Positions 4,241 to 41,738 of a stretch of 64,000 nt of DNA are shown here, one piece after another (within the stretch, counting starts at the first letter, position 1; each line of letters opens with the position of its first letter). The DNA comes from Cyanophora paradoxa CCMP329 (taxonomy: Eukaryota; Plantae; Glaucophyta). The stretch is from positions 1 through 64,000 of the forward strand of contig QPMI01000148.1 of the NCBI GenBank assembly GCA_004431415.1, given 5' to 3'. A program made the translations under genes and the position numbers. Under the pieces are notes generated by a model. It did not search any database. It had not been told where the DNA came from and was given only the letters and a program-made list of their open reading frames with translations.

Positions 4241-5671
4241 ATGGATCCACGACCTCGCTTAGCCGCCTCACGCTCAAATCCGTCCTCGAAACCCCGGAGG
4301 ATTACAAGAGCATGCTTTTGGATCGCGGATTTATTGTGGGCGTTGATAACAATTCAAGCCTTCTCGTGTTGAGGTGCTCCAATTGCGGATCCCGGCAATC
4401 TGTTCTCCTCTACTGGTGCTACCACTCGTGTGGTCTTCTATCTCCCTCGCTACAATTGGTGCAATGGTATTAGCCTCCAAGTTACCATCCGTCGGCGAAG
4501 GCGCTGACTGCCATCGCCAAGACCTCTGCTGACTGCTCGGCTGATCTATTCATACTGGATTCGTCGCGGGCTTCCTGGCTCGTTTTCAGCGAGTCAGCAT
4601 TAAATACGGGTCGTATGAGCAAATTATCCGCTGAGCGCCTGGTAGATTACGCTTTCCTCGCTAACACTCCGGCTGAATTCGACCAAAAGAAGCGCAAGCA
4701 TGGGCTGCATCTCGGACCGAAGTAGAGGGCGGCAACCAAGCTGGCGGCATTTTTACCATGCGAATTCCGAGCTTCCTCGATGCTGGCGTGCCATCGGTGC
4801 GCTCCCATCCGAAATCGCGGTCGAAGTATATTTCCAAACCCCTGCGCTGCTCGAAACTGCGGCGGTTCCTGGCGTTTACGCTCAGAATAACACGACTGCA
4901 ATTACTGCTGCCAATTCTACTGATGGCGAGACGACGCTTGCTGTTGCGGCTGCTTTCGGAAATATTAAGACCTTAGCTCACCCTAATGCCACTGCGATTT
5001 TCGATAGTGCGGCTCTCACACCTACACCTGCTCTTGCGAATCTGGAAATGACGACCCCTCGTATTATTATGGATGCTGTTAACATCGATGAGGAAACGAT
5101 GGGCGAAATCATTACTCGTGTTAAGACCTCTGGCATCGCCATCCCTACACTGATATTCAGTTTGCGGATTATACCGGTCTTGCTCTCGGCTCTGGTCTCC
5201 GCCTGTCACTATCTCAAATTTCGGGACTTGTTATGCACTTGTTGTCAAGGTTCGCGACGAAAACACACTCGGCGATAATAAAGGAGGGCACTCTAACTGT
5301 CCGCACCTTGCCTTCGATGATAATGTCGTGATGCAAGTTCTGAATAACAACAATTACCTATATTCTAACACTGGTGTCCCGCTGCAATCTGCGGCTATGG
5401 AGCTCGCCGATAAATTCAAGATGACTAACTGATCGATAGCAACAAGCGCCCATTTACACTGGCTTCTGCTTTGCTCTCGATGGTAAAGCGGCGCTCAAAG
5501 GTGAGAAGGCGACTGGCTACGTCGATCTAACGCAATCAGCGTCGAGCTTCCTATCCTCACACCCAATGGCACACCCTCGCCACCTGGACAAAGGTCGGTG
5601 TTCAGATCTCGGCTTATTGCCACAATATCCTTGTAATGAATGCCAACGGTCTCAGTAGAATTAGCGCCTGA
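4241..5671 (+). pseudogene. Double jelly-roll major capsid protein, PLV type (frameshifted)
   Basis: About 1.43 kb between pentons and ATPase. Fragments TTRVVFYLPR, FQRVSIKYG, PRIIMDAVNIDEETMGEIITRVKTSGIAIPT and C-term YCHNILVMNANGLSRISA* fit a PLV MCP in size, position and style. Confidence 0.7.
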
Positions 5672-5722
5672 AGGAATGAGGGCTGTCGCGTTTCGTAATT
5701 TTTATATGTTTCTTATAAGGAA

Positions 5723-6496
5723 ATGGATATACAAGATCTGAGTGAGTTTGACCCGGGAAGCCTGGAATTTCCGAATCGCGCCGTTTTTGTGGGCAAAACA
5801 GCACTGGGAAGTCAGTGTTTTTGAAATACTGCTTTACCACAACGAGGACAAGATAGATTCGGTGATGATATTCGCCTCCACGATCTGGAATCATCAATAT
5901 GATAATGTCACATCGTATCTGTATGAGGATTTCGACCATAAGCTGATCGACAATATAATAGAGAAACGCAAGGAGAGGATCAAGAAAAATGAGAAAGTCG
6001 GTAACCTGTTAATTGTGCTGGACGATTTTATTGATAATCCGAGTCTATCGATGTCAGGAAAGGGTGAGCCTATATTAAATCGTCTTTTCACTGCTGGACG
6101 CCATCTGTTTGTGAGCGTCTGGATTCTGTCACAGAAACTCACGAAGATCTCGCCGACACTCAGAGTAAACGCCGAATATATATTCCTGTTCTCATTGCCG
6201 AATAGAAAGGAGATGGAGAGCGCCGAGGACGAGTTAATCCATACGAAAAGCGGTGGTTCGAGAAGGTGATGACCGAATACAGTCACAGCTATCAGGTGAT
6301 CGTGGTAAACAATGCGAAATATAGCCTGGAATTCTCTGTTGGCAAGGCTGATCCGGTGCCCGACGAATATAAATTCAAGCGCTTCTTTAAAAAAGCGGCG
6401 GACGACATAAAGACCGCTGGTAAACAGCCGGTAAAACCGACGTCGGGCGCGGTAAATGGCGACCAACCCCAAACCACGATATTACGAAACCTGTGA
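5723..6496 (+). pseudogene. A32/FtsK-HerA family genome packaging ATPase (frameshifted)
   Basis: Walker A across a frameshift (AVFVGKT/STGKS), Walker B LLIVLDD, family motif LFTAGRHLFVSVWILSQ..ISPTLRVNAEYIFLF. Confidence 0.9.
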
Positions 6497-7300: not shown

Positions 7301-7521
7301 GGTGGGCGTCGTCGCTTCTAATGTGCAAGTCGTTCAAACATAAATGAATCCGCCCGTATTTAGAGCGGGTCTTAATATGAATTCCCTTGCAATAGGGACA
7401 GGTCGGCTCCACAAACACCATTATAAGGTCGACTAATTCGTATGGGAACACACGAGCAAGTAACACCCTCATTCCCTTTTCTTTTCTCCAATATTTAATA
7501 CGTTGTGCAATATTAGGATCT

Positions 7522-7797
7522 ATGAATTTCATCACGCAATGCATTGAGATGTTTCACCTGCATTTCACAAGCACGTGCCACAACTCCTGCTGCGACACAA
7601 CCGTAGAGGTTGACATTTCGGACGAGGATAATGGAGGAAGGCGATTATCTGTATATTCCAACCACAGCGATAATCACGATCGTCCCCGATCTCGATCGCC
7701 CTCGCCTGTGCCCGCTGACTCCAATATAATCCCACAGGTAGCAATAGAAGACGTGCAAGTATCCTATATAAGACGCCGTCGTGCCCTAATTTCGTAG
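7522..7797 (+). CDS. Hypothetical small viral protein, Cys/His-rich N-terminus
   Basis: 91-aa ORF with ATG start inside the viral block; no family recognised. Confidence 0.35.
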   Translation: MNFITQCIEMFHLHFTSTCHNSCCDTTVEVDISDEDNGGRRLSVYSNHSDNHDRPRSRSPSPVPADSNIIPQVAIEDVQVSYIRRRRALIS

Positions 7798-8012
7798 AAG
7801 GTCATATTCGCGTTGATTCGCCATATCCGCCAATTAATCCGCTTTATTTGGGCGAATACGATCGCTGAAACAATTTTCGCGGTAAATAGTATCGAATGCC
7901 CGACCCTGATCTCTACGCGATCCTATACAGGAAACGCGCGCAAAATGCACTGGAAGCCGCTATTAAAAAACGTAGAGAAGAGCTCGCTTCGGTCACAAAA
8001 AATGACAGCTCA

Positions 8013-8085
8013 GAAAATGATTTAAAGAAGAAATAGCAAAGACCACTGATAAAAATATTTTCTCAGCTTAAAGTAAGGTAAACCA
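8013..8085 (+). promoter_or_regulatory. Putative viral promoter motif, copy 1
   Basis: AAAATGATTTAAAG..AAAATATTTTCTCAGCTTAAAGTAA immediately before ATG 8086; near-identical to 15721-15794. Confidence 0.7.
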
Positions 8086-8307
8086 ATGGAGACGCATGCT
8101 ATGACTGTGTATGATAAGAACGGGAACCCGGTAGATCTCGATAAGGCGGGCTGGCGTGTCAGGGATATATATAAACAGCGGATGCGCTATAACGACGATC
8201 CCGAATATCGCGAATTAAAAAAGAAAAAGGCGCTAGAATATTACTACCGTCGCAAGCAAGAAGAGGGCATCCATAGTGGAAACCGCGGGCGACCCCGCAA
8301 GTATTAA
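8086..8307 (+). CDS. Small basic DNA-binding protein with C-terminal AT-hook
   Basis: Intact 73-aa ORF; basic helix YRELKKKKALEYYYRRK and terminal RGRPRKY AT-hook; conserved upstream motif. Confidence 0.7.
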   Translation: METHAMTVYDKNGNPVDLDKAGWRVRDIYKQRMRYNDDPEYRELKKKKALEYYYRRKQEEGIHSGNRGRPRKY

Positions 8308-8487: not shown

Positions 8488-10890
8488 ATGGCGAAGATGA
8501 CGTTGAAACAAAAGACTTTACTCCAAGAGCTCGCTGATTGGCTGCGTGGCGATGAGACCTTGTCGAAAAACACGATTATTCCCATGAAAGACGAGGTTAA
8601 AAAGCCCGCCTACACCATAAAGGCGGTGTTTGGAACTGGGGAAGATACGACGAAGCCTTTGCTTCCAACGAGTTCACTAATTGGGGCATTCTGCTGTCGA
8701 ATTCGATGATGGTCGTTGATTTCGACGATGAGGAAACGTATCAGAAATTCGTTGAGATGTTTCCCGGTGATTTCGATGCCCATCAGCCGCTCGAAAAGAC
8801 TCGAAGGGCTACCATGTATTCTTTCGACGCCCTGATGAGTTTGATAAGCTGAAAATCACAGATAGCGCGCCGGCTTTTAAGGGATACAAGAAGGTCGACC
8901 TCAAAACCATCACTGGCACTGGCACTGCGGGACTTCTCAATGTATGCCCGAGCCCTAACAAGACCTGGTAATTAAGCCGTGGGCACCGTCGTGCAAGTTC
9001 AATGAGCCCTCTGACGCTTTCCGTAAATGGATTATCGAGAACTACGATTACAAGCATGCCAATAATCCACAGCCGAAAGCGGGAATTCGAGCAAGGATAA
9101 TACCGAAGCCGCTATTATTGCCGGACTGTGTGGCATGGGGTTCCTATTCCAAACATCTATGCACGCCGCGATGAGGGCTTTGACTTTAATTCGGCTAACA
9201 AGGGGTTCCTGTGTCCCTGCTGCGATGAATCCCACGATTCCAATAACTGGTGGGTGAAGAAAAAGCGAGATGGCAATTATAATGAGTATATTGTGAAAAG
9301 TTATAGCGAGAACTGCGAGCCGAAAGAGTTCTCTGTTAACATAGAGCTGACTGAGGAAGAGAAGCACCATTTAGAAATTAATACTCTCATTGACAAGACG
9401 TTTCAGTTGAAGGTGCCATTATCCTGTTGCAATTATCTGCGCCAAGATCCTGAAAGCGACCACGAAATATTCAAATAAGGTCTGGTTTAACCTTAACCCC
9501 AAAAATGGTATCTGGAAATATGATAAAACGGAGAAGTCGTTACTTTCTAAGATCCCCGAGCATGTGGCACAGTGGTTCTCTAAGAGGGCGGGCTATCATC
9601 TTTCCAATGCTCTCAGGGCAAGTGGAGATGATCTTGTGAAGGAAAAGCTGAGAAGAGCGCCAACATGTTGCTGGCAATTCACAAGAGGATTCAGAATACA
9701 CCGTATCAAAAGTCGCTGGAACCGCATATTATCACACAGCTGCAAGACGATGACTTTATGGCGACTCTGGACACAGTTCCCAATATTGTGGGGTTTACCA
9801 ATGGCGTGTTTGATCTAAATAATATGACTTTCCGCAAGGGGACGATGGAAGATATGGTGAGCAAGACTGTCGGCTTTGATTATAGCGAGGAAGTGGATCA
9901 GGAGAAGGTTAAAAGACTGAAAGACATTTATTTGGATATCTGTGGCGGAATATGGAACTCTACAATTACCTGATCAGCCTCTATGCATATGCACTCACAG
10001 GTAAAACCGACCTGCAACGTTCTATCTGTTCACAGGCGTCGGTGCTAATGGAAAGAGTGTGATTGAAACGTTTATGCAAGAGACATTCGGCGATTATGGT
10101 CGCCCGATTAGCATTACTTTGCTCACACAAGTCCACAAAGCAAATAGCCCGATTCCCGAGCTTGCTAATAAGCAAGGTGTCCGGCTCACCATGCAAACGA
10201 ACCTAATGATGGCGACAAGCTTCTATGCGGTATGATGAAGACACTGACAGGTGGCGAGCTCTGCACAGCCCGAGGACTTTTCAAGGATCCTATTGATTTC
10301 AAGCCTCGGTTTACTATGGTGATCCTGTGCAACAATAATCTGGAAATCGAAAAGCCCGACAAAGCTATTAAGCGTCGGTTCCGATCGATCCCATTCCGCT
10401 CTGTTTACTCACCTAATCCAAAGCCGGAGAGAAGAAAGCGGACGAAACCCTCATGGAAATGTTTGAGGGCGACGAGAAAAATGAATACAAGCGGGCAAAT
10501 ATTCAGATTCTCATCGATATGCTCGCTACTGGCAAAGTTAAAGAGATCCTGCAAAACCCGCCGCAATCTGTCATCGAGCATAGCGCCAAATACCTCGACG
10601 ACAGCGATAAGCTGGGTTCCTATCTGCGCGAAAACTACAAACCATCAGATGAGAAGGGCGCCCATGTTGCCTGCGATGAGGTATTCAAAGCTTGCGCGGA
10701 AATGATGCGAAGCTACGATATCAAGACAAAGGTTACCACTCGCACTATCAGTAACAAAGTGCTCGAAACATTCAAGATTGAATCGACTGTGACTACAATT
10801 AAAGGGAAGTCGAAGCGAGTTTATAAGGGGCTCACTAAGATCGCCAAGACACAGTTCGAAGACGAAGATGAGGACGATATTGAAGCATAA
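8488..10890 (+). pseudogene. Bifunctional primase-polymerase fused to D5-like SF3 helicase (frameshifted)
   Basis: PrimPol motifs VVDFDD and KTRRGYHVFF (8710-8830); Cys cluster CPCC..H..C; D5_N-like VGFTNGVFDL..FRKG..DMVSKTVGFDY; Walker A FTGVGANGKS (~10030); MKTLTGGE..ARGLFKDP; ILCNN; KAIKRRFRSIPF. Confidence 0.9.
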
Positions 10891-10907
10891 GCGACACGGA
10901 AACAATT

Positions 10908-11180
10908 AATAACTACATCATTTTTTAGTAACTACGCAACTACATAGCGAAGCTACGCAATTTAATACTGGAAACTACGCATTTAATACCAAAACTACGC
11001 AACTACGCAACTTTCTGCAAAAGGTTTGAAGGTCGGGGCGGCAAAAATTCTGAAAAGCGCAAAAGTTGCGTAGTTGCGTAGTTTCGGTATTAAGTGCGTA
11101 GTTTTGGTTTCAAGTTGCGTAGTTTTGCAAGGAAAGTCAAGTAGTTTCATGTAGTTTATTATATTAATTAAGTAGTTTAT
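10908..11180 (-). repeat. Iteron-like palindromic element, copy A
   Basis: Arrays of AACTACGCA facing arrays of TGCGTAGTT around a ~55-bp asymmetric core; its reverse complement aligns with copies B and C. Confidence 0.9.
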
Positions 11181-11657
11181 TATTTTGTATACTGTATATC
11201 GTGCCATTCTCAAAATATGATTAAGGTATATAAGCCTTCCTTTGATTGTATATACTGACAACACAATGACCGCTATCAGACCTACCTATACGCACGCCCT
11301 GACTGCGGACGAGATCACTCAAACCGCGACCATGGATATTGAAGCCACACAGGATCTTTTCAGGCGAATATTCGGTTACTACCGAATTGCCGTGGTAAAA
11401 AGACAAAAACCCATGTTATCAAATCTGACACTATGCAACTGACAATAGAGCTGCCCGAAAACGTAAGACTAACGGTAAGAAGTGTCACAAAGCTAACTTA
11501 GGCACTTGCAATTAATGGTATTGTTGCAAACTCTCAATACGACAAACTGGACAGGAAAAACGTTGTTTATAAGTCATTTCGGATATACAAGATTCACACA
11601 CAGAACTATTGCACTGCACACAAGCTAAATCTTCCGTTTCTATAACCTCTAAACAAA

Positions 11658-12005
11658 TCACACACTTAACTTCCCATCTTGTTTTTTAGAAAAGCCCGAT
11701 ATAACATTTTGTATTACCTCAATGCATTTCTCTTTCGTAATGTCAAGTGGTATTAACATTTTATATCCTTTGTAAACCAATGCGCATATGTGCTGCCTAC
11801 GAGGATGGTAAAACTGGGAAGCCATATTAAGATGTAAAAACATGTCCTGATGTTTACGCGTTTGTGATATAACAAAGATTACCTTCTTACGGGCATTCTT
11901 CTTTTCCCATTTGAGATAGTTCTTGTCTGTGCATTCTTTTGTTGCTTCTGTTACGGGAATATTTGTAAGTGTCTTACAATATTCTATTATCTCTTGGGTA
12001 TTCAT
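11658..12005 (-). CDS. Hypothetical viral protein
   Basis: Intact 115-aa Lys-rich ORF in an AT-rich patch; no family recognised. Confidence 0.5.
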   Translation of the reverse strand: MNTQEIIEYCKTLTNIPVTEATKECTDKNYLKWEKKNARKKVIFVISQTRKHQDMFLHLNMASQFYHPRRQHICALVYKGYKMLIPLDITKEKCIEVIQNVISGFSKKQDGKLSV

Positions 12006-12135
12006 TGTGTTTCTCTATATCTGATACACATAAAATGTTTTCCTCCGTGTCATTTTTTGAGATGTCCTTAAATATGTTTCCACATTTTTTGAACGCGTCC
12101 TTTCCCGAAATTAAAATGTTCCCTTAGAGTAAAAG

Positions 12136-15100
12136 ATGCCCGCCAAACTAATCGCCTTATAAAAGAGAAAAAGGACGAAATATTAGGCTTGTTAGGTAGT
12201 CTTTTAGTCACTGGGAGATCACCGAAGCCGAATACGATCGGAGGGCGGCGATCTTAGATCGAAAACCCCGCTTAGCTAACCTTGCGAATATTGCCGACGA
12301 GCTCTACAATCGCCTGGAAAATGTGGAGCGCTTCTATACCGAAGGGCGGCGCTTAGCCGTCATAGAACCCGATGAGGAAGACGGTTTTGCAATGAATAAA
12401 GCATACGCCTGGTATAGCTATAAGGCGGATGAACAGATAATCTTAGATCCGGTGGAATTTCTCACTACCATCGCTGCAAATCTGCCTGGGCGGCTGAAGA
12501 AAGGCTGGATGAACTGAAAGCTATTAAGGTGCGACTTACTTTCATCTGCCGATACGTAAAAGTGAGTGATCCTAACGTTTTTATCACCAAACACATATAC
12601 AGCGATTATTTCGTAATCACAAGGTCGCGCAATATTCTCACTGAGTTAGTGGGTGTAGCTCAGCAAATGAATGAACAGATGATACAGGTTGACAGCTACC
12701 GGCTCAGTAAATTAGATAAGCTACATGTCGCCGTTTTGTCATATGCGCCGATGGGCGGTTGCTACATTGAGACCCCGAATGGATTGGATTAAAGCGAGCC
12801 ACAGTAAATATTAAGAATATCGATGGTCACGACTGCTTTAATTACGCTATCCTCGCATGGCTGCACAGAAACGACATAAACAGACACAAACGTAATGATC
12901 CGTTCCAATATAGGCGGTGGATGACTGAGCTGGACTTCTCAGGCATTAATTTCCCGGTGGCTTGCGATGCTGCATTAATAGATCGTTTCGAGGACAATAA
13001 TCCCGAGCTGTCAATTAATATATATGGCGCCGACAATGCGACCCAAACCTTTTATCCACTGCACATGTCAAGTAATCCGCGTCGTAAATCGAAGGTAAAC
13101 CTGCTGCTGATCGAGGACGCAAACGGACAGGGTCACTATATTACGATAATGTCACTGAGCCGCCTCTTAAAGACCACCTTTGATAAAGCAAACGACGGGC
13201 GCATTTTCTACTGCGAAACCTGTTTGTCCCGGTTTAGATCACAGGAGAAACTCGATAGCCACACCGACTCTAATCGCTGTATCGATTGGCGCTGAGTAAA
13301 GGTAAATGCCCGGAGCCCGGAAGCTTTATTACTTTCGGACTGCAACACCTAAGGAAATGGTGTGGCTTCCTACTGTCTGCTACTGCAAGGTAGAGATGGA
13401 GTCGGTGCCGGTTCCTAATGAACCAAATCGAACCAAGCGAGAGGTAAAGTCGGTGGCACTTAATGTTGTTATGGGCTCTCATGTTGAAAATCACGAATTC
13501 GAGGGCGTGGATCCGCTGGGACAGATGTTTACCACGTTAGGGGAACTGTGCCGCGAGATGCTTAATACCCTATTTACCAATACACCTATGATTCCGCTCA
13601 CAGAGGCGCAAAAGCAAGCCTATAAAATCACCAAGCACTGCTATATATGCAATCAGCGGTTTACCCACGAAAACTTCCCTGTGCGCGATCACTGTCACCA
13701 AAGCGGCGATTATATAGGGAAAGCTTGCCGAAAATGCAATTTACACAGGAGGATCTCAAAGCAAACGAAAGTAGCCGTGGTCATTGATCGGATGGACGAG
13801 TGCGGGCATGCTATATTCAGGAAAATCGCACAGCAAGACGATAAGCTGCGGGTCGAGATCCTAAGTAAGAATTTCGACGAGTATCTCTCTTACAGTGGGG
13901 ACTTTACAAGTTTATAGACGCCTCGAATTTCATGGATTTTCAGGCGTCCGATGTTAATGATCTCATGGTAAAATTCGGTAAATTCAGTATGCTCGCACAT
14001 GAGCAATACGGTCTGGATCCCACGCATTATGTGAGCGCACCGGGACTATCGTGGGACGCGATGTTAAAGCATACGAGGGTCGCGATAGAACAGATCAGTG
14101 ATGCGGATCAATACGAATTTATTGAGCGGGCAATTAGGGGCGGCTTTGCGACCATGCCCACACGATATGCCGAGGCTAATAGCGAGGATAAACATATAGT
14201 GCTATTGGATGCGAATAATCTATATGGCTATGCGCTAAGTCAGCCTTTACCGGTCGGGGACTATCGCTGGGACGACACGAGCACAGCTTTTACCGAGGTT
14301 GTAGGGCGGAGTGCATTTATAGAGGTCGACCTTGCGTATCCGGACTATTTAAAGGGCGACCATCGCGATTTCCCGCTGATCGTGAGTAAAGAGGTAATTA
14401 CTGCGGACATGCTCGGCAAGTATCAGCGTGGGCTTTTGGAGATTAGCGGCGAGAAGCTCAGTAAAGATCCGAAGCTGATCGCCTCGTTTACGCCGAAATA
14501 TAATTACGTGGTCTCTCAGCCGATGCTGCTCTATATGGTAAAAAAGGGGATCGTAGTTACTAAGATCCACCGGGTTCTCTCGTTTGCAACCGCTGCATTT
14601 ATGAAGCCCTACATAGATCTGAACACGAAACTGCGAAAGGAAGCCCGGAATAAATTCGAGAGCGACTTCTTTAAATTAATGAACAATGCTATTTACGGTA
14701 AATGCCTGGAATCGTGCCGCGGGCGCTCAGTGGTAAAGATCGCGAATAGCACGAAGCTGTTTAAGAAATATGCGGCGAGCCCACTGGTAAAAGCGACGAA
14801 TGTATTAAACGAGACTGCGGTTGCATTCGAAATGTATAGTAAACACGTAAAACTCGACAAACCGGTGGCTATTGGCGCTTATGTGCTGGATGCCGCGAAG
14901 CTGCATAATTATAGCTTCTTTTATGACGTGATCCGACCGACTTTCGTGCAAGCTCAGCTGCTGTTCCACGATACCGACTCGTTCTGTCTGTATATAGAGA
15001 GCGCGGATCTGGAAGCGGGCATGCGAGCGATCAGCCCTTATTTAGATTGCCCTTATAGTCCCGAGAACCGGATGGTTCCCGGTAAATATAAAAATGAGAT

Positions 15101-15392
15101 GCCCGACGTCAAGATAGTGGAGTATGTGGGGCTGCGCCCGAAGCTATATGCTTTCCGCACTGAGAGCTACGACAAGGTAAAAATGAGCGGGACAGCCTCG
15201 AAAGAGGTGCATTTCGACGACTTTAAGCGCTGCCTATTTGACGGGATCACAAAAACAGTAACAGTAGTAAACAAGCAACGGCGATGCCACCACTTATATG
15301 ATTTGGAGAGCAAGCGGATAGCGCTGACCCAATTCGATAGCAAGCGCTGCATATCAGGCGACGGCATACATAGCCTTCCATTCGGCTGTTAG
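12136..15392 (+). pseudogene. Protein-primed family B DNA polymerase (Polinton type); 5' half frameshifted, polymerase domain 13932-15392 open
   Basis: Pol motifs LDANNLYGYAL, KLMNNAIYGK, HDTDS, EYVGLRPKLY and LDPTHYVSAPGLSWDAMLK. Upstream: vOTU-like NIDGHDCFNYAIL..INIY..NLLLI..GHY, zinc finger YCETC..H, EndoVII-like CYIC..VRDHCHQSG..ACRKCN. Confidence 0.95.
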
Positions 15393-15720
15393 TCGTCTAT
15401 CTTATCGTGCGTTCTTTTCTTGGTTTGCGCTCTAATTGAAGGAGCTGTCGCCTTAGGATATGGAGAAGCCATATGCACTTTAATCCGGGTCGTCAGGGTC
15501 GATTAGGAAGTAATTGGGATCGGGTGCGCGTCCCATACCGGATCATTCATTTTACTGTTTACTGCACGTTTTTATTGCGCGTTTTGCGGTGTTTATTGTC
15601 AGGATTTTCATTAATTATTAAAATCTCGACAATAAACGCTCAGGTAGCCTGATTTTATTGACAGTAAACGTGAGAGTCTCACCGCGGATCGTCAAAAAAT
15701 GAAAGCCCCGTGGGAAACGC

Positions 15721-15794
15721 AAAATGATTTAAGGAGAACGCGCTACATTTAGGCAACAGGAAAATATTTTCTCAGCTTAAAGTAAAAGGCGACA
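15721..15794 (+). promoter_or_regulatory. Putative viral promoter motif, copy 2
   Basis: AAAATGATTTAAGG..AAAATATTTTCTCAGCTTAAAGTAA before ATG 15795. Confidence 0.7.
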
Positions 15795-16421
15795 ATGAAG
15801 TATAAGTATGAGGGCAAGCGCATCTTTACTTCTGATATCGAAAAGGTCACGTTTAATCTATGGGACTTCTGCGCTTTATACGAAGCTATTAAAGAAGGAA
15901 GCCACGGACAAGGAAAGACGTTAGATATCACGGATATAAGCGACATCGGCTATTTTCCCGAGCACGATAATCCCAAATTATATGCCCTTTCGTCTTCCGA
16001 TTGCCGCTTGTTCTGCCTGGGAGAACGGAAAGGATGGGATCAATGGGTTATACATGATCAATATGTATCTGTTCACGGCTTTGTGTCTTTGATTGATTTC
16101 GCAAAGGTTTGTGGATTCGTGAATAATGTAACGGATAGAAGAATACCTCTGTTCCACAAGGAATCAGCCATGGATGTTTTGTTTGAAGCGCATTATAATA
16201 GGGAAAGGCACTATTTGGATATTCACAAAAACCTCGAAAAGCACCACACTAAATTCGCGGAATTCGGGCTTGTGATCCGAAACCGAGCTGCCTTGCGTAA
16301 ATACTTAAAAGAGAACGGAGGGATATGGGATAGTGACGCTCAGCTGTGGTATACCGAGAATCATAAAAGCAATCTACTGCAAGTGTTTGAGTGGTCGCAC
16401 GGATATCCCGATTTACCGTAA
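15795..16421 (+). CDS. Hypothetical viral protein with C-terminal DUF5710-like motif
   Basis: Intact 208-aa ORF; C-term KYLKENGGIWDSDAQLWY matches the KxxGxxWDxxxxxWY pattern. Confidence 0.65.
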   Translation: MKYKYEGKRIFTSDIEKVTFNLWDFCALYEAIKEGSHGQGKTLDITDISDIGYFPEHDNPKLYALSSSDCRLFCLGERKGWDQWVIHDQYVSVHGFVSLIDFAKVCGFVNNVTDRRIPLFHKESAMDVLFEAHYNRERHYLDIHKNLEKHHTKFAEFGLVIRNRAALRKYLKENGGIWDSDAQLWYTENHKSNLLQVFEWSHGYPDLP

Positions 16422-16492
16422 ATAAACAATACCTTTCTTGTCGCGTGCGAGTAAAATGTTACATTGATCTTTTTTATTGTCTGATGACAAGG

Positions 16493-17926
16493 ATGTCAAG
16501 ACCGCCGATAGTAAGACGATCGCAAGATTTAGAGGGGAGCACATTGCCGATCCCCGTGCCGAAAGAGAATAAAGAGAGCCGCATAGTAAAGCGGTCTGAT
16601 TTAAAGGCTTTGGTGCCCCGCGATGTGCCCGTAGCCCTTGCTGTCCCGGAGCAATCGAAAATCGCGCGTAAATTCTACGATCCGCAAACCGGTTTCAAAG
16701 GGATCACTAAGCTACGGCAAGAGCTGCCCGACGAGAATTATAAGAAATTGCAAGAGTGGTATAGCCGGCAAGAGGTCGTTCAGATTAATGCGCCGCACCT
16801 ATCCCGCAAACGAGACCCGGCTATACCAATCCGACAGCCTCTCGATACCTACGTAATTGATCTGCTATTCTTTCCGGCGTATGCTAAGTATAATGACGGC
16901 TACCAAGCGTTTTTAACTGGGATGGAGAACACGTTGCGGGTCGGCTATATTATACCGATGCGGGACAAGTCGGCTGCATCGACCTTAGCCGCCTTTATAC
17001 AGCTACAAAATAAGGCGCCGCGACCAATTTTTAAGATTCAAAGCGACCGCGGCTCAGAATTCACTAATAGCCTGTTAAGAGAATATTTCGAGAATCAGTT
17101 TATAGAGCATCAGATTGCGGACACAGCCGACCATCGCGCGCAAGGGCGCATAGAAGCATTTAACAAGCAAATGCGGCGGCTGATCACGAGCTACTGCATC
17201 GCTAATAATACGGCGCGATTTATAGATGTCCTGCCCGAGTTAGAATATAACTATAATAATACGGTGCACTCTGCGACCGGCTATATGCCCGCCGAGACCA
17301 ACGAGAGTCACTATAAGCTCATAGTTCAAAAAGAAGATGCGAAATTCAAGAAATCGATAGCTTATTTGGATCAGATTCAGCCGGGCATGTCAGTAAGGCT
17401 ACGCATCGAGAAGACGCCATTCGCTAAGGGCGGTAACAATTGGAGCCGAATCGTATATACTGTCGCCGCGCGCGAGGGCTATAAGTTTATGCTAACTGAT
17501 CCGGACGGCAATCGCGTAGAGGGTCGCTTTGCCTTCCACGAGCTATTGCCTGTCCAAGCTGTGGATTACCTAATGGCGCCCACAGTAGATGCATTAGAGG
17601 CGGCGAAGGACGAGGCGCGGGTCGATGCGCAATTGCGTAGAGAGGGCATAGAAGCCGCCGCGACTGTGCCGCAAGGCACTCTATTAGAGGATCGCGTGCA
17701 AAAAGAGAAACGCGTAAATAAAGAATTACAGCGGCTAGTAACCGCCGCCGAGCCTAAGCTATCCGGCGGCGTGAATAGCCAACGATGGTATAAGTCGTTC
17801 TCTAATCAGACTGAGAGCTATAAAGCGCCGGAAACCAAAGCTACATTAAGAAGTAGTAGAAAAGTAGCAACGGTAGCGCCGGTAGCTAATGGCGATCGAA
17901 AAGCGACTCTGAGACCACGAAAGTAG
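16493..17926 (+). CDS. Retroviral-like (RVE, DDE) integrase, Polinton type; start approximate
   Basis: Triad YVIDLLFF / IQSDRGSEF / QGRIEAFNK; FIDVLPELEYNYNNTVHSATGYMPAE; GMSVRLRIEKTPFAKGGNNWS. Reading frame intact. Confidence 0.95.
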   Translation: MSRPPIVRRSQDLEGSTLPIPVPKENKESRIVKRSDLKALVPRDVPVALAVPEQSKIARKFYDPQTGFKGITKLRQELPDENYKKLQEWYSRQEVVQINAPHLSRKRDPAIPIRQPLDTYVIDLLFFPAYAKYNDGYQAFLTGMENTLRVGYIIPMRDKSAASTLAAFIQLQNKAPRPIFKIQSDRGSEFTNSLLREYFENQFIEHQIADTADHRAQGRIEAFNKQMRRLITSYCIANNTARFIDVLPELEYNYNNTVHSATGYMPAETNESHYKLIVQKEDAKFKKSIAYLDQIQPGMSVRLRIEKTPFAKGGNNWSRIVYTVAAREGYKFMLTDPDGNRVEGRFAFHELLPVQAVDYLMAPTVDALEAAKDEARVDAQLRREGIEAAATVPQGTLLEDRVQKEKRVNKELQRLVTAAEPKLSGGVNSQRWYKSFSNQTESYKAPETKATLRSSRKVATVAPVANGDRKATLRPRK

Positions 17927-18289
17927 TAGGCGCCGCGGTGCTTTCGTAGCCGCCAAATCGCGCGCTTTGCGAATCAGACCGCGCCACTTTGTAGTAGTGT
18001 AGAACTACTCTATGCGCACGCGGATGCAAAGTATGACTAGTGGAGCCTTACGGGAACGCGCGCCGGCGCGCGCGACGTAGGGACACCTCGGTTTTCGGGC
18101 ACTTGTGCGATGGCGAACTTGCGCGTCGCGCCACGGTTGCGTAAGCTAGTCAAACTAGCACCAACATGCCCGGAAGCAAGTTACGAGCACGTAGCAATTG
18201 AGAGCGCGCCGAGATCGGCTCGCTGTCCAAAGTTATGCGGGGAAAACGGAAGGGGGTCTCCGCGAAGTCGCGATCGCCGGTGTTATCGA

Positions 18290-18565
18290 GTCGGGACTCG
18301 GGACTCGGGACTCGGGACTCGGAACTCGGGAAATTGCAACTTGCAAGCCGGTCAGTCGCTCAGCGGCTGGTCAGTCATATACACATATATATGCATTCAA
18401 GTTTTTGTTCGCAATTTGTCCACAAAATGACCACAAACCCGGTAGCCCCGATGTCCACAAATGTCCACAAAATGCCACCTTTACGGTATCCCCCCTGTCA
18501 GTCACCTTAACCGGTATCCCCCCTGTCACGTTCTGTCACCTTAACCGGTATCCCCCCTGTCACCC
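18290..18565 (+). repeat. Subterminal short tandem repeats
   Basis: (GGGACTC)x~5 at 18292-18330, TGTCCACAAA(A)TG x3 at 18417-18475, CGGTATCCCCCCTGTCA x3 at 18484-18563. Confidence 0.8.
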
Positions 18566-18964
18566 ATGAATGATAAATTAAATAAAATAAACAGTCGGTT
18601 ACGCTCACATCCGCGATTGGTCGATCGATCGAAAAACACATAAAAAACTACTTTGTGGCATGCTATATGTTTTCGGAATCGCCGCGATGTGATGACCCCG
18701 AATATGTCGGTGACGCCGGTATATATATGTATATGTCGTCATATGCGAAAAAAACAAAAAGACAAAACAAATTCAGAGTTGTGCGGAATATCTTAGACGG
18801 AGGTTCAGACATATATACGAAATATATACATGACTAAATCGTTTTTGTTTTCATAGAACTCGCATGTTGTTGGCATGTATCTTGCATAGTGGGCGGGGCG
18901 CACTGTTTCACACTAAGGTCAATCGATTTTCATAGAGTCTCAGACTGATAACAATAAGATAAAT

Positions 18965-19235
18965 AATAAACTACTTTATAATTAATAAAAACTACTTTAA
19001 ACTACTCAACTACCTATGTTAAACTACGCAACTTAATACCGCAAACTACGCATTTAATACCAAAACTACGCAACTACGCAAGTTTTTCACTTTTCTAATT
19101 TTTTTCCCCCCCTACTCTCAAATTTTTTCAGAAAGTTGCGTAGTTGCGTAGTTTTGGTATTAAATGTGTAGTTTTCGGTATTAAAAGCGATCAGATTGCG
19201 TAGTTTTCATGCGTAGTTACGTTAAATTGCGTAGT
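18965..19235 (+). repeat. Iteron-like palindromic element, copy B
   Basis: AAACTAC(GCA) array / core / TGCGTAGTT array. Confidence 0.9.
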
Positions 19236-19394
19236 CTCCGATTGCCCGCATGCATTTAGGTGCGAGACTATTGTGTAGCCTATAAAACGGTCGTGTTTCA
19301 GTGCGAAACTATCGCGTAGCTTCCCTTTATAGCATGCCGGCGCTCTTTAAGTAGAGAAAGCATGGTATATATCATAGAATCATATTGATATTAA

Positions 19395-19665
19395 TAAGAA
19401 ACTACTTTATAATATATAAACTACTTGAAACTACTCAACTTACCATGAAAAACTACGCAATTCGAAACCAAAACTACGCAAACGAAACCAAAACTACGCA
19501 ACTACGCAAGTTTTACACTTTTCTAAATTTTCCAGCCCCGAATTTCAAACTTTTTCTGAAAGTTGCGTAGTTGCGTAGTTTTGGTATCTTTTCAGTAGTT
19601 CCCGGTATTAAATTGCGTAGTTTCTTTGAGTAGTTGCGATAAATTGCGTAGTTTCTGTGCGTAGC
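19395..19665 (+). repeat. Iteron-like palindromic element, copy C
   Basis: As copy B, about 430 bp downstream in the same orientation. Confidence 0.9.
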
Positions 19666-20002
19666 CGCTCGATCTCGATGCGAAACTCATACATTTACAT
19701 GCGAAACTGATGCTCTCGATGCGCGCGAACGTTCCATGCAGCACATGGTAGTTGTTTTTGATGAAACGGCGCGTGATCGTCGCTTTTGCATTAAAAATTC
19801 AGAACAACACACATATACAACGCCCGGCTTTTAGACTGAGGCAAGTTATAATTAAACTAAGTTGAGTCACACCTAAACTATAATGAATCTCACGAGATAT
19901 ATAAGTCTACTCATCGAGAATATAGCTAAACTTCACATAAACTATACATATTTCACATATTTTATTAAAAAGAAGCTATAACCCACGATAATGCGTAATA
20001 TC

Positions 20003-20299
20003 ACACATAGAGAAAGCCCGCGTTTTATCATGAGGCGTGATATATTTTAACTAAGTTTAAAATCCACCTCAAATACAAATGATTACGAGAGATAGAGGTA
20101 AAATACATCGGAGATACGAATAAATTAAATAACAGTAAGGGTTTGGATAGTAATTTATAGGAAATACGCACATAAAAGAAAAGAATAAAGGATAAAATAC
20201 ACATAAATATACGTAAAATATGCAATAAATATAGGTAAAATATAAACAAAATATAATTAAACTTAGCCGAGGGATAAAACGCGGGCTTTCTCTATGTGT
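20003..20299. mobile_element. MITE-like AT-rich element with 27-bp perfect terminal inverted repeats
   Basis: ACACATAGAGAAAGCCCGCGTTTTATC (20003-20029) and its exact reverse complement (20273-20299). A degenerate tandem copy lies at ~19807-20002; no TSD identified. Confidence 0.7.
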
Positions 20300-34997: not shown

Positions 34998-35660
34998 ATG
35001 GGCTACGGGTGGATCCCGGAGGAAGGGAAGCTGGACCTTGGGGGGGAGGGCCGGACGGAGTGGCCGGCGGCGGAGATCGCGGAGGCGGGGCACGAGAACA
35101 TCCGCGTGCTCAACCTCAGCGGGAACAAGCTCACACGCATCCCGGGGGCTGAGCTCGCCAAGCTGACGAACCTGGAGACGCTGTGGCTGCAGTGCAACCA
35201 GCTGATGGAGCTGCCGCCGGAGATCGGCCGCCTCGCCGCCCTGCAGGAGCTGGACGTGAACAGCAACCAGCTGACGGCGCTGCCGCCGGAGATCGGCCGT
35301 CTGGCCGCCCTGCAGGTACTGGACGTGTACAACAACCAGCTGACGGCGCTGCCGTCGGAGATCGGCCGCCTCCCCGCCCTGAAGGAGCTGCGGGTACACG
35401 GCAACCCCGTCGTGGACTCGTGGCCCGAGCACGTCCGCTTCATGACCTCCATGTTTATGTCCGGTGGAGCCCAGTTATCCGCCGTTGTGTTTCACCTCCG
35501 CTCCCTCGCGGCCCCCGCCGCCGCCGTGCGCCCCGCCGCCGCGTCCCCTTCGCCCCCGCGCCCTGCCCCTCACCCCGCGCCGCAGCCCGCCGCCCCAGGG
35601 TGACGTGCGCTTCTGGAGCGAGGACGACGTCGTCGCGTGGGTCCAATCTCCCGGCCGCCC
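34998..35660 (+). pseudogene. LRR gene paralog 4, truncated after the start of a SAM domain
   Basis: 5 LRRs, then GDVRFWSEDDVVAWVQS; the rest of SAM/TIR is absent and duplicated SMC6 sequence follows. Confidence 0.75.
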
Positions 35661-35956: not shown

Positions 35957-36423
35957 CCGATCCTTCACCACGACGGCCTTCACGCTCGCCGTCGGCAGCA
36001 AGTGCCAGTCTCCCTTCCGCGTTATGGACGAGTTCGGTCCGCCTGTACCCCCCAGCCTTTCGCCCACTACCCCCCCCCCCCCCATCTTCCTGACTTCGCC
36101 CCGGACGCAGACGTCTTCATGGACGCCCAGAACAGGCAGATCACGATGGACCTTCTGCACGAGGCGCACGGCTCCATCGAGGGCGGCCGCAAGCAGTTCA
36201 TCTTCATCACGCCGCAGGACATCGCGTCCCAGGTCACGGAAGGCGTCCACGTCCAGAAGGCCCGCCCCCTCATTTTTTTCAAACTCGAATTCGATCTTCC
36301 TCCGATCCGCCGCCTCCCCCGGCGCCTGCGCTGACGCCTGTACCCCGCCCGCCCCCGCAGATCCTGCACCCGCGCCTGCAGGGCACCAACTCCCAGATGC
36401 GCATGGACAACTACGTCGAGTAG
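35957..36423 (+). pseudogene. Duplicated 3' fragment of SMC6 (inverted)
   Basis: Near-identical reverse complement of 41739-42196 including introns (RSFTTTAFTL..VMDEF/DVFMD..QFIFITPQD). Confidence 0.9.
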
Positions 36424-36624
36424 ATACAGCTAGAGGCGGTTCGAAGCTAGCTCTAGCTGCGCGTGCACAGCGGGCCGTGGGCACAGCGTGAATAGTAGTG
36501 AGAATAGTACCAGCCCGAACCGAGTCGAGAAGAGAGACGGGTGTGATTCTTGAGAAGGGGGCGGGGAGGGGCAGGACGGGAGATCTAAAATTCCTACGTG
36601 GAAGAAGCAAGGGGAGGCCGGGGC

Positions 36625-37146
36625 CTATCGCCTGCGGAGGAGCATGTACAGGAAAACGATGACGCCGACGACGAACAGCATGAGGTAGCACATGTGCTTG
36701 CTCCCGCCCTTCTTCACCATGTCGTTCAGCTTGGTCATGGTGTTCTTGAGCATGCCGCCGACGCCCACGAAGTCGCTGTCCATCGTGTCCAGCATCTTGT
36801 TCTGCGACTTCACCTCGTTGCCGATGTCGATAGTCAGCTGCGACGGGCGGCGTCGGTCAACCGCGAGAGCGGGCATATGAGGGCCGGCCCCACGCACATT
36901 CTTCAGAAGCGCGACCTTGCTGCCGAGCTCCTCAATCTGCGAGTCGTTCTGCTGCTCCAGCAGCTCCTCCGACGCCGCGTGGAGCTGGGACGAGCCCGCG
37001 CCACCCGCAGTGCCGAAGAGCGCCGAGCGCGCGCCCGGGTTGCTCCGCTCGCTGCGGAAGAGCAACGCGGGTCAGACCCACTACGCGAGTGGCGAAAGCA
37101 AGCCGGAACAAGTGACCAGGCCGCGCCGCGCGCACCGGAGGTTCAT
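36625..37146 (-). CDS. BET1: BET1-like Qc-SNARE (spliced; 5' end uncertain)
   Basis: LEQQNDSQIEELGSKVALLKN/LTIDIGNEVKSQNKMLDTMDSDF plus a C-terminal TM anchor. The first exon needs a small indel to join the frame. Confidence 0.88.
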
Positions 37147-37329
37147 GTTGGCGCCGGAAGCCGAGTAAGGGTTCGGGCGCATCCGCCGCGCAACGACCCG
37201 CCTGTCTGCTGTTCGAGAACCCGCTTCTGCGCCTCGCTTCTGCGCCTGACTTCTTTGCTCGCACGGGTACGGGTCTACTTGGTCGAGGCGGGTACAAAGA
37301 GCGAGTGACGACCAAAAGCGGGACGGTCT

Positions 37330-40300: not shown

Positions 40301-41109
40301 GCCTCCGCGGCGCCCGCCCCGCCTCCGCCTCGGCCCTCGCCGCCGGCCCCGCCCGCGCCGCCGTCGTCGCGCGGCCCGCCTCGGCCGCCCCGGCGCGCGC
40401 CTGCGGCTCTCAGCGGGCGCCGGGGCCGGCCGCGCGGCGGGGCCGGCGGCGGCGGCCTTCTCGTCCGTGGAGGACGAGCTCGGCCCGATCGACCCGGCGA
40501 CGGCGGCCGGGGGCCCGGCGTGCGAGGCGGCGTGCGAGGCGGCCAAGGCGCGGCTGGAGCAGCTGTGGGCGGAGCTCTACTACCCGATGGGGGAGCGGGC
40601 GCGGGTGCGGGGCGCCCTCTTCGGGGCCTCCAACCCCTCCGTCCTGGCGGCCCTCCGCTCCCAGCTCGACGACGCCCTCGCCTACCGCTCTTTGGTCCGC
40701 CGTACCCCTGCCCGCCCCGCCCCCCGGCGGGGGTACGTTCTCATCGGGCGGGGGTACCGGTGCAGGTTGTGGAGGTGCTGCGGCAGATTCGGGCGCGGGA
40801 GGCGCTGCTTGAGGAGATCGAGGATGAGGGGGCGGGCCTGGACGAGGCGCGCATCGGGCAGCTGCTGCGGCTCTCGCGCGCCGCCCTCGCCGCCATCGCC
40901 GCCTGGCGCGACGCCTTCTGGTGGAACAAGGTCTTCATGTTCCGCGGTGCGCGGCGTACCCCCGCGGGCCTCGAGAGGCGTACCCCCGCCCCTTACAATT
41001 ACGCTGGGCAGGCGTGGACTACGCGGCGAAGGTGGAGGGGGACCTCCAGTTCCTGCGGGACCAGGGCGTCGACGTGGCGGGCGCGGGGGCGGGCGGGGCG
41101 CCCCCGTGA
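37330..41109 (+). CDS. Multi-IQ (8 motifs) calmodulin-binding protein, multi-exon; start uncertain
   Basis: Eight AAxxIQxxxRG/KGxxxRK motifs at 37910-39010. The helical C-term ending AWRDAFWWNKVFMFRGVDYAAKVEGDL weakly recalls CCDC87/MAP65-type tails. Confidence 0.8.
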
Positions 41110-41279
41110 CCGCCGCCAAGGGCGGGGCGGGGCGGCCCTCTTACAGATTGCAGCCGAGGTCTAGATCAAACAGGGGACCGAATGATGTTACTGAATGCAT
41201 TATATTAATCATGAATCTTGAATGAACGAAAGTGTCGACGCTGCATTTGAGCTCGCGCGCAACAGTACCGTAGTGCAGC

Positions 41280-41528
41280 ACATCCGCACTGCGGCAACGA
41301 GGTGAAGTCGCAGAACAAGATGCCATGATGCTGGACACGATCATCGGATGGACAGTGACTTCGTGGGCGTCGGCCGCCGGGCGGCATGCTCAAGAACCGT
41401 TGAACACCATGCATATGACCAAGCTGAACGACATGGTGAAGAAGGGCGGGAGCAAGCACATGTGCTACCTCATGCTGTTCGTCGTCGGCGTTATCGTTTT
41501 CCTGTACATGCTCCTCCGCAGGCGATAG
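41280..41528 (+). pseudogene. Duplicated 3' fragment of BET1 with multiple micro-insertions
   Basis: Reverse complement of 36625-36830, interrupted by six 6-8 bp insertions. Confidence 0.92.
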
Positions 41529-41738
41529 GCCCCGGCCTCCCCTTGCTTCTTCCTCGTAGGAATTCGAACTTCAGATCCCCCGTCCTGCCCCCTCCCCGCC
41601 CCCTTCTCAAGAATCACACCAGTCTCTCGTCTCGACTCTGTTCGGGCTGGTACTATTGATATAGTCACACTACTATTCACGCCGCGCCCACGGCCCGCTG
41701 TGCACTCGCAGCTAGAACTAGATCCAAACTACCTCCAG

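What the first reader, a model, noticed from the sequence alone, without database searches (positions are those of the whole stretch)
10908..19665. Three iteron-like palindromes; inverted copies bracket the PolB-integrase module
Seen: a ~270-bp element of converging AACTACGCA arrays around an asymmetric core lies directly after the primase-helicase stop (copy A). It recurs twice in the opposite orientation near the right end (B, C). The copies are diverged yet keep motif spacing. Established: converging short repeats are how SF3-helicase origins are built (SV40 pentamers, phage P4 ori). Inference: replication origins bound by the D5-like protein. A versus B/C also form long inverted repeats around 11.2-19 kb, so this segment may be invertible or a separately acquired sub-element.
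Basis: partly seen in the sequence, partly recalled or inferred. Interest (0 to 1): 0.72.

Follow-up and report, generated by a model that had tools for sequence, protein, structure and literature searches.

The report
Phage-style replication origins in Polinton-like virus
A small DNA virus embedded in a host genome carries three copies of a 270-base mirror-image repeat block, one right behind its primase-helicase gene; they are likely start sites for DNA copying, built like those of bacterial phages and phage satellites.

Summary
All 24 AACTACGCA copies in the window fall in three converging 4+4 arrays (A, B, C; 79-83% alike; A inverted to B/C). They lie in a 45%-GC, multi-copy Polinton-like virus. 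A starts 20 bp after the stop of a D5/SF3 primase-helicase whose tail matches a domain reported to fold like the phage P4 origin-binding winged helix. Repeats are better conserved than spacers, and their spacing (8, 20, about 21-22 bp) is fixed. The same geometry follows the stop of 3-4 of 14 phage P4-type primases and 0 of 50 giant-virus-type D5 genes. It matches the published SaPI origin layout. Best reading: helicase-loading origins (inferred; binding untested). The invertible or acquired sub-element idea gets no support: no target duplication, and polymerase depth tracks capsid depth while this helicase allele plus A has about one third. A second, unrelated PLV-like contig also has two inverted arrays. 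Verdict: new variant of a known origin type, not found described for PLVs in five searches.

The parts
10908..11185 (.). Array A: converging AACTAC(GCA) repeats (6-7 per side counting degenerate ones) around a 57-nt asymmetric core; putative origin directly 3' of the helicase gene
18959..19240 (.). Array B, inverted relative to A (82.7% over 226 nt); 56-nt core; in the non-coding right end
19390..19655 (.). Array C, tandem partner of B (period about 440 bp), inverted relative to A (82.4% over 250 nt); 55-nt core
8488..10890 (+). D5-like primase-helicase gene, in several reading-frame pieces in the window: Prim-Pol-like N-terminus (lead), D5_N, SF3/P4-family helicase core, C-terminal tail
   Evidence: D5_N E 1.6e-8; TIGR01613 E 7.8e-11, below cut-off; 416 phage records hit; Prim-Pol lead
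10453..10890 (+). Helicase C-terminal tail, predicted winged-helix (candidate origin-binding) domain
   Evidence: Atlas Pox_D5-containing clusters, score 0.95-0.96; PHROG primase C-termini; profile A6 hits C962R 791-913, E 6e-8, whose tail is reported to fold like the P4 origin-binding domain
12200..15392 (+). [quoted passage not shown]
   Evidence: PF03175 E 1.2e-12; N-terminal pieces match PolB loci
16484..17926 (+). rve-type integrase
   Evidence: PF00665 E 0.008; matches in 7 of 10 PolB-relative loci
5742..6269 (+). A32-like packaging ATPase (capsid module marker)
   Evidence: PF04665 E 2.2e-5
20003..20299 (.). Right end of the low-GC element: 27-bp perfect inverted repeat (20003-20029 / 20273-20299); host-type GC begins at about 20300

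Best explanation
The three arrays are likely iteron-type replication origins of an endogenous Polinton-like virus, which its own D5-like primase-helicase would recognise through a predicted winged-helix tail. Shown: position, repeat layout, fixed spacing, conservation of repeats over spacers, gene content. Inferred mechanism, by analogy with SaPI Rep, P4 alpha and pRN1 ORF904: helicase tails bind the repeats on both arms, two hexamers load facing each other, the 55-57-nt core opens, and the N-terminal primase primes synthesis, which the element's PolB or host polymerases extend. Inferred layout: A is the gene-linked copy and B/C are end-borne copies. An internal copy of a terminal-inverted-repeat sequence is necessarily inverted to one end, which would explain the A versus B/C orientation without an invertible segment. 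The prediction is a B-like copy at the unseen left end, in A's orientation.
For: Position 20 nt after the helicase stop. Spacing from the centre is 8, 20, 20-22 in five arms and 8, 20, 32 in one arm of B with a 10-nt insertion. Repeat columns are 93-96% identical between copies against 71-77% for other columns, Fisher p 5e-5 to 8e-4. The strict detector finds exactly A, B and C in the element, 0 in 43.7 kb of host and 0 in 50 shuffles. The same geometry follows the stop of 3 of 14 (strict) or 4 of 14 (loose) phage P4-type primase genes, each with its own motif, and of one more phage helicase gene (L087). The published SaPI origin has 6-12 iterons right after rep, half on each side, pointing in opposite directions, bound by a C-terminal winged helix (PMC9371898 passages). 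Tail-domain evidence. One contig of run X19 runs from 9665 to 10968, joining the helicase 3' end to A's first arm. A's depth bin (0.37-0.64 of capsid) follows the helicase (0.31-0.40), not the polymerase. The B bin is 2.1-2.3 times capsid in 3 of 4 runs, a weak hint of a copy at each end. Gezel-14T is reported to carry a >300-bp repeat both in its TIR and just downstream of its helicase module (PMC11296320 section 9).
Against: No binding or replication data exist. B and C have no helicase gene or remnant beside them. The core is not clearly AT-rich (0.56 in A) and has a G/C run, unlike the SaPI centre. The helicase core is at least as close to giant-virus-type D5 proteins (31-51%) as to phage primases (up to 44%), and 0 of 50 such loci carry an array after the stop. 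That includes L045, the one locus with a similar Prim-Pol N-terminus. 10 of 14 phage primases show no array with either detector. In L034, two inverted arrays sit between divergent genes and upstream, not downstream, of a probable replicase. Depth is not a copy number (tool warning): the B bin is only 1.1 times capsid in X19, the C bin is 0.2-0.9, and bin 7403-8069 is also high. The element also encodes pPolB, which needs no internal origin (general knowledge).
Confidence: 0.62

Rival explanations
1. The arrays are binding sites for a different element protein, for end recognition by integrase or terminal protein, packaging, or promoter control, and A lies behind the helicase only by chance or by rearrangement.
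For: Two of three copies are in the non-coding right end with no helicase beside them. The B-bin depth exceeds the helicase depth about 3-7 fold. In L034 a pair of inverted arrays lies between divergent genes. L011 has an ATTACAT 4+4 array after PolB with no helicase match.
Against: Same inner geometry as the arrays after phage P4-type primase stops. A's depth follows the helicase. The element's very end has its own, different 27-bp inverted repeat. Loose ends at 9884 in 3 of 4 runs suggest that other copies carry a diverged helicase allele rather than none.
Confidence: 0.2
2. A and B/C are recombination ends of an invertible or separately acquired PolB-integrase sub-element.
For: They form 226-250-bp inverted repeats about 8 kb apart. 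The copies look mosaic by eye, which fits exchange between them. L034 shows a similar inverted pair 8.1 kb apart.
Against: The pair is only 82-83% identical. No direct repeat of 6 nt or more flanks A..B or A..C. Polymerase contig depth is 0.58-1.08 of capsid depth, so the two modules seem to travel together, and the helicase allele plus A is the minority part. PolB and capsid modules have similar GC (47% and 46%) and trinucleotide profiles (r 0.85). No strand-switch joint at the arrays among the 15 of 44 joints shown.
Confidence: 0.1
3. The unit is a non-autonomous palindromic mobile element (MITE- or REP-like) that inserted three times.
For: Strong hairpin potential (DNA fold z -10 to -13). 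The same inner 16-mer doublet occurs in 4 GC-rich bacterial-looking metagenome contigs, one beside a REP-associated-transposase-like gene (E 6e-10, below cut-off).
Against: 0 exact motif copies in 43.7 kb of host DNA in the window. No target duplication at A and only one chance-level 6-mer each at B and C. The homologous unit is lopsided and its arms are only 81-83% symmetric, while repeat spacing is fixed. The bacterial hits have only the inner doublets and different flanks, and were selected by the pattern itself.
Confidence: 0.06
4. A is an RNA hairpin that ends the helicase transcript, as in the giant-virus hairpin rule (recalled).
For: The 220 nt after the helicase stop fold with z -9.2.
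Against: 0 of 8 other element gene ends tested fold better than shuffles (z -0.8 to 2.2). B and C follow no gene. A terminator would not need fixed repeat spacing with free spacer sequence. Rfam gives only sub-threshold hairpin matches.
Confidence: 0.05

Closest known systems
SaPI origin of replication bound by Rep / PriRep5 (PMC9371898; passages read)
   Same: Origin immediately 3' of the SF3 primase-helicase gene; 6-12 short repeats split on both sides of a centre and pointing in opposite directions; C-terminal winged helix as reader.
   Different: Here the element is a Polinton-like virus that also encodes pPolB and an rve integrase; there are three copies; the repeat is 8-9 nt; the core is pyrimidine-skewed with a G/C run rather than plainly AT-rich; binding is untested.
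pRN1 ORF904 stem-loop origin, and phage P4 alpha origin (PMC4234260; abstract, passages and section 18 part 1)
   Same: Prim-Pol, SF3 and winged-helix architecture (Prim-Pol is only a lead here); an essential palindromic region just downstream of the gene; in P4, repeats bound by the winged helix.
   Different: pRN1's origin is a roughly 100-nt stem-loop without iterons; P4 alpha has a Toprim primase; both are prokaryotic and single-copy.
PLV end-module hypothesis and the Gezel-14T repeat (PMC11296320; passages and section 9 part 1)
   Same: Proposes that PLV inverted repeats serve as origin for D5-like primase-helicases, and reports a >300-bp repeat both in the Gezel-14T TIR and right after the helicase module; models a helicase taking over from PolB-rve.
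   Different: The text I read describes no converging iteron structure, and those helicases pair with tyrosine recombinases. Here PolB-rve and the helicase coexist. Its supplements (short repeat arrays flanking helicases) were not seen.
Terminal 52-nt palindromes of Halocafeteria virophages and PLVs (10.64898/2026.07.28.741278; passages)
   Same: Palindromes in TIRs proposed to act in replication, linked to non-pPolB replicases; some elements carry pPolB plus D5.
   Different: Those are short terminal hairpins next to the target duplication, proposed to self-prime. These are 270-bp subterminal and internal repeat arrays with a long unpaired core.

Membership tests
SaPI/P4-type iteron origin | Located immediately 3' of the primase-helicase gene | tested here: met
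   A begins 20 nt after the stop; not true for B and C
SaPI/P4-type iteron origin | At least two short repeats on each side of a centre, in opposite directions, 6-12 in all | tested here: met
   4+4 exact 9-mers per copy, 13-14 counting the 6-mer
SaPI/P4-type iteron origin | AT-rich centre | tested here: inconclusive
   Core AT is 0.56 (A), 0.70 (B), 0.69 (C) against about 0.55 for the element, with T-tracts around a G/C run; the most AT-rich stretch (0.76-0.88) is at the outer end of one arm
SaPI/P4-type iteron origin | Cognate SF3 helicase with C-terminal winged helix | tested here: met
   SF3 core. The tail matches Pox_D5-containing clusters, and as a 17-sequence profile it matches the C962R tail, reported as P4-OBD-like. 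Sequence-level only: the single-sequence fold was uninformative
SaPI/P4-type iteron origin | Sequence-specific binding and initiation at the array | not testable with these tools
   needs EMSA and a replication assay
Polinton-like virus / Polinton | Packaging ATPase, pPolB, rve integrase, GC distinct from host | tested here: met
   (41-50% GC by module against 68% in host)
Polinton-like virus / Polinton | Double jelly-roll major capsid protein | tested here: inconclusive
   The candidate at about 4650-5700 had no Pfam or PHROG hit; a minor-capsid-like piece hit DUF5901 weakly (E 0.006)
Polinton-like virus / Polinton | Terminal inverted repeats and target-site duplication | not testable with these tools
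   the left end lies outside the window and no genome is held
MITE / REPIN | Near-perfect terminal inverted repeats with target duplication | tested here: not met
MITE / REPIN | Dispersed copies in host DNA | tested here: inconclusive
   0 in 43.7 kb of host window; the whole genome was not available
Invertible segment / nested element | Both orientations, or independent presence, among copies | tested here: inconclusive
   no strand-switch joint in 15 of 44 joints shown; depth argues against independent presence

The most novel reading that the evidence does not exclude
This virus family is caught mid-way through a replicon takeover. A primase-helicase with its own phage-style origin has entered a PolB-integrase Polinton-like virus, and copies of that origin now sit at the genome ends, so one element can replicate either by protein priming or from internal origins. 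Copies lacking this helicase allele would be copied in trans. Paired inverted origin arrays, as in the unrelated contig L034, would then be a general and overlooked feature of Polinton-like viruses.
Probability: 0.3. Interest if true: 0.78.

Novelty: new variant of a known kind. Interest (0 to 1): 0.57.

Why it matters
How Polinton-like viruses with D5-type primase-helicases start replication is open: the papers read here only hypothesise that the terminal repeats act as origins. This locus names a 270-bp sequence, a 9-bp repeat and a roughly 100-residue domain that can be tested against each other with one gel-shift assay. It also offers a sequence signature (tandem pair, core, inverted tandem pair) to scan PLV collections. 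If true, it carries the phage-satellite origin design into eukaryotic viruses and gives a test case for the published model of replicon turnover.

Tried and rejected
Relatives of the helicase were not found by word-index searches (0 hits each), by the HMMER scan of 1.84 billion representatives with the tail (0), by viral-contig scans (0 confirmed) or by tblastn of the tail against phages. The exact array pattern gave 0 hits in viral contigs and 0 in prokaryote genomes. The 4 metagenome hits were rejected as unrelated bacterial REP-like doublets. The single-sequence fold of the tail had mean pLDDT 54, and the fold search had no match with Z 5 or more; this is inconclusive. The alignment-based fold did not finish before the session ended. 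No RNA holder was listed, which says nothing on expression. The 469-bp perfect fold-back at the end of L045 was set aside as a likely assembly fold or hairpin end. Rfam hits were sub-threshold miRNA-type hairpins, and the sigma-70 and terminator scan was at chance level. Earlier findings by place, sequence and relatives were blank. No finer read-level view of A, B and C than one search was obtained, so inversion and copy linkage rest on that one coarse, truncated output. The rest of contig L034 was not held, and Gezel-14T was not in the collections.
Full report
OBSERVATION. The 9-mer AACTACGCA occurs 24 times in the window against 0.20 expected, in three clusters of four forward then four reverse copies: A 10930-11124, B 19022-19218, C 19451-19653. 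A is inverted to C (82.4% over 250 nt) and to B (82.7% over 226 nt); B and C are direct (79.3% over 280 nt) and form a tandem pair with a period of about 440 bp. A's first AACTAC lies 20 nt after the stop at 10890.

SETTING. Positions 1 to about 20300 are 41-50% GC by module against 68% in the rest of the window. They encode an A32-like ATPase, a D5-like primase-helicase (8488-10890), a protein-primed PolB and an rve integrase: a Polinton-like virus, with the major capsid gene not confirmed by any profile. The left end is outside the window and no genome is held. 20 of 24 listed runs, all of one coded organism and from 18 studies, hold 65-68% of the sampled words. Contigs of 4 of these runs cover all 30 bins with many variant letters, as a multi-copy family would. 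The 12 of 119 indel rows shown are one or two letters missing in the window and present in 3-4 of the 4 runs. The many frame breaks are therefore likely read errors of the window (inference).

ANATOMY. From the centre outward, repeats are spaced 8, 20 and 20-22 bp in five arms, and 8, 20, 32 in the arm of B that carries a 10-nt insertion. Further out the spacings are 10 and 19-21 on one side, 13 and 18 or similar on the other. Columns inside repeats, masked from one copy and scored in the other two, are 93-96% identical against 71-77% elsewhere (Fisher p 5e-5 to 8e-4). The two arms of a copy are only 81-83% alike. Fixed spacing near two helical turns with free spacer letters is what a protein-binding array looks like (general knowledge), more than a structure kept for pairing, although each copy folds strongly (DNA z -10 to -13). 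The 55-57-nt core is pyrimidine-skewed with T-tracts around a G/C run; it is only moderately AT-rich.

THE PROTEIN. The helicase core matches P4-family primases in 416 phage records (TIGR01613 E 8e-11, below cut-off) and giant-virus-type D5 proteins at 31-51%. The N-terminal piece is a Prim-Pol lead (Atlas 0.96 with weak recognition; 33% over about 54 residues to the Prim-Pol protein of L045). The tail resembles Pox_D5-containing Atlas clusters (0.95-0.96; the family is on 12-44% of members) and the C-termini of three PHROG primase families. A profile of the tail plus 16 D5 tails matches C962R residues 791-913 at E 6e-8. The paper on that protein says its tail (833-910) folds like the phage P4 origin-binding winged helix, while noting that direct DNA binding is unclear (PMC10516667, passages). 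That profile is driven mostly by the 16 relatives, to which the window's tail is 12-21% identical. My own structural test was inconclusive.

COMPARATIVE TEST. I picked 14 diverse phages by hand from 40 rows spread over the 416 hits. A loose detector found converging arrays starting within 50 bp of the primase stop in 4 of 14. A strict one (tandem pair, 15-130-nt gap, inverted tandem pair) found 3 of 14, plus one 470 bp downstream in BPP-1. Each has its own motif. The strict detector gives A, B and C in the element, 0 in 43.7 kb of host and 0 in 50 shuffles. In 50 giant-virus-type D5 loci (689 kb, with several near-duplicates) no array follows the stop (0 of 50), and the single strict hit is a perfect fold-back at a contig end. 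Among 19 other loci there were four hits: L011 (after PolB), L086 (same contig as L045), L087 (40 bp after a phage helicase stop) and L034. L034 is a 15.7-kb contig with an A32 ATPase, a phospholipase A2-like gene and a fibre gene. It holds two inverted, 82%-identical copies of a different converging array 8.1 kb apart. One copy is just upstream of a large ORF that I read, from recalled motifs and with no profile hit, as a PolA-type (TVpol) replicase. So the geometry is typical of phage-type primase origins, absent after giant-virus-type D5 genes, and recurs as an inverted pair in another PLV-like genome.

COPY STRUCTURE. The tool warns that contig depth is not copy number, so this is a hint only. 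Single long contigs give, relative to a capsid-module contig, 0.33-0.38 for the helicase 3' half in 4 of 4 runs and 0.58-1.08 for PolB. Binned depth gives A 0.37-0.64, B 2.1-2.3 (1.1 in X19) and C 0.8-0.9 (0.2 in X19). One X19 contig spans 9665-10968, from the helicase into A. Loose ends at 9884 in 3 of 4 runs continue with a helicase-like but different sequence, suggesting diverged alleles. Thus PolB seems to travel with the capsid genes, and this helicase allele with A is the minority part. That is the reverse of what a separately acquired PolB-integrase sub-element would most simply predict. No direct repeat of 6 nt or more flanks A..B or A..C, and no helicase remnant lies by B or C. None of the 15 of 44 joints shown switches strand at the arrays; the other 29 were not shown, so inversion stays open.

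MECHANISM. Most likely (0.62) the arrays load the primase-helicase: tails bind the repeats, two hexamers face each other, the core opens and the primase starts synthesis. Every step is inferred from SaPI Rep (PMC9371898, passages), P4 alpha and pRN1 ORF904 (PMC4234260; abstract, passages, section 18 part 1). B and C would be end-borne copies. If B lies in a terminal inverted repeat, A is simply an internal copy and must be inverted to one end, as reported in outline for Gezel-14T (PMC11296320, section 9 part 1). Rivals: another protein's binding array (0.2), invertible or nested segment (0.1), MITE/REP-like unit (0.06), RNA terminator (0.05; 0 of 8 other gene ends fold).

LITERATURE AND NOVELTY. 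Searches returned no paper describing an iteron-type origin in a PLV, Polinton or virophage; one search was empty; others were for background. Passages of PMC12220804, 10.1101/2025.10.09.676808 and 10.1101/2022.07.28.501842 mention primase-helicase genes or TIR units but, in what I saw, no such arrays. 10.64898/2026.07.28.741278 (passages) describes 52-nt terminal palindromes. I opened no supplements; those of PMC11296320 on short repeat arrays flanking helicases could bear on novelty. The library lacks most subscription papers. One earlier AI note (e1-1932072) reports a similar block after a primase-helicase in another alga; I did not test it and do not count it as support.

VERDICT. Real feature; likely a phage/SaPI-style origin in a Polinton-like virus; the sub-element idea is unsupported. 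New variant of a known kind; interest 0.57.

Noticed in passing
L034:2331-2542 and 10685-10893: PLV-like IMG/VR contig with two inverted, 82%-identical converging-repeat palindromes (outer AATTCCAA repeats, inner AGACCAC doublets) bracketing an 8.1-kb capsid-type segment; both lie between divergent genes, one just upstream of a probable TVpol-type replicase (motif reading recalled).
   Followed up: partly
window 8052-8076 and 15761-15785: Identical 25-bp direct repeat just upstream of two short ORFs (about 8089 and 15795). Contigs skip or replace sequence right after both (joints 8054-8178 and 15792-16406), and ORF 15795 has only 0.12-0.25 of capsid depth: possibly variable gene slots behind a shared promoter-like motif.
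   Followed up: partly
window 20003-20299 (and 19808-19863): 27-bp perfect inverted repeat enclosing an AT-rich 243-nt stretch at the element's right boundary, with a third degenerate copy (77%) at 19808; could be integrase-binding end motifs or a small inserted element.
   Followed up: no
window 9884: Contigs of 3 of 4 runs leave the window sequence here and continue with a different helicase-like sequence: a mosaic or diverged helicase allele in other copies.
   Followed up: no
window 18291-18331, 18451-18562: Other tandem repeats in the right non-coding end: a 7-bp unit x5.9, a 10-bp unit x2 and a roughly 34-bp unit x3.
   Followed up: no
L001-L004: Bacterial-looking REP/REPIN-like palindromes with the same inner 16-mer doublet; in L001 adjacent to a REP-associated tyrosine transposase-like ORF.
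   Followed up: partly
L011:5725-5861: ATTACAT 4+4 converging array between convergent PolB and integrase genes of a Polinton-like contig.
   Followed up: no
L045:13299-14236: 469-bp perfect fold-back at the end of a 24-kb contig that encodes a Prim-Pol/PriCT_2/D5 protein and an SF1-type helicase; hairpin end or assembly artefact.
   Followed up: partly
window 22800-35600 and 36000-42200: Host side: four tandem leucine-rich-repeat-like gene copies (69-bp repeats) and a roughly 700-bp, 85-99% inverted repeat pair (35958-36738 / 41415-42196) around a repeat-protein gene.
   Followed up: no
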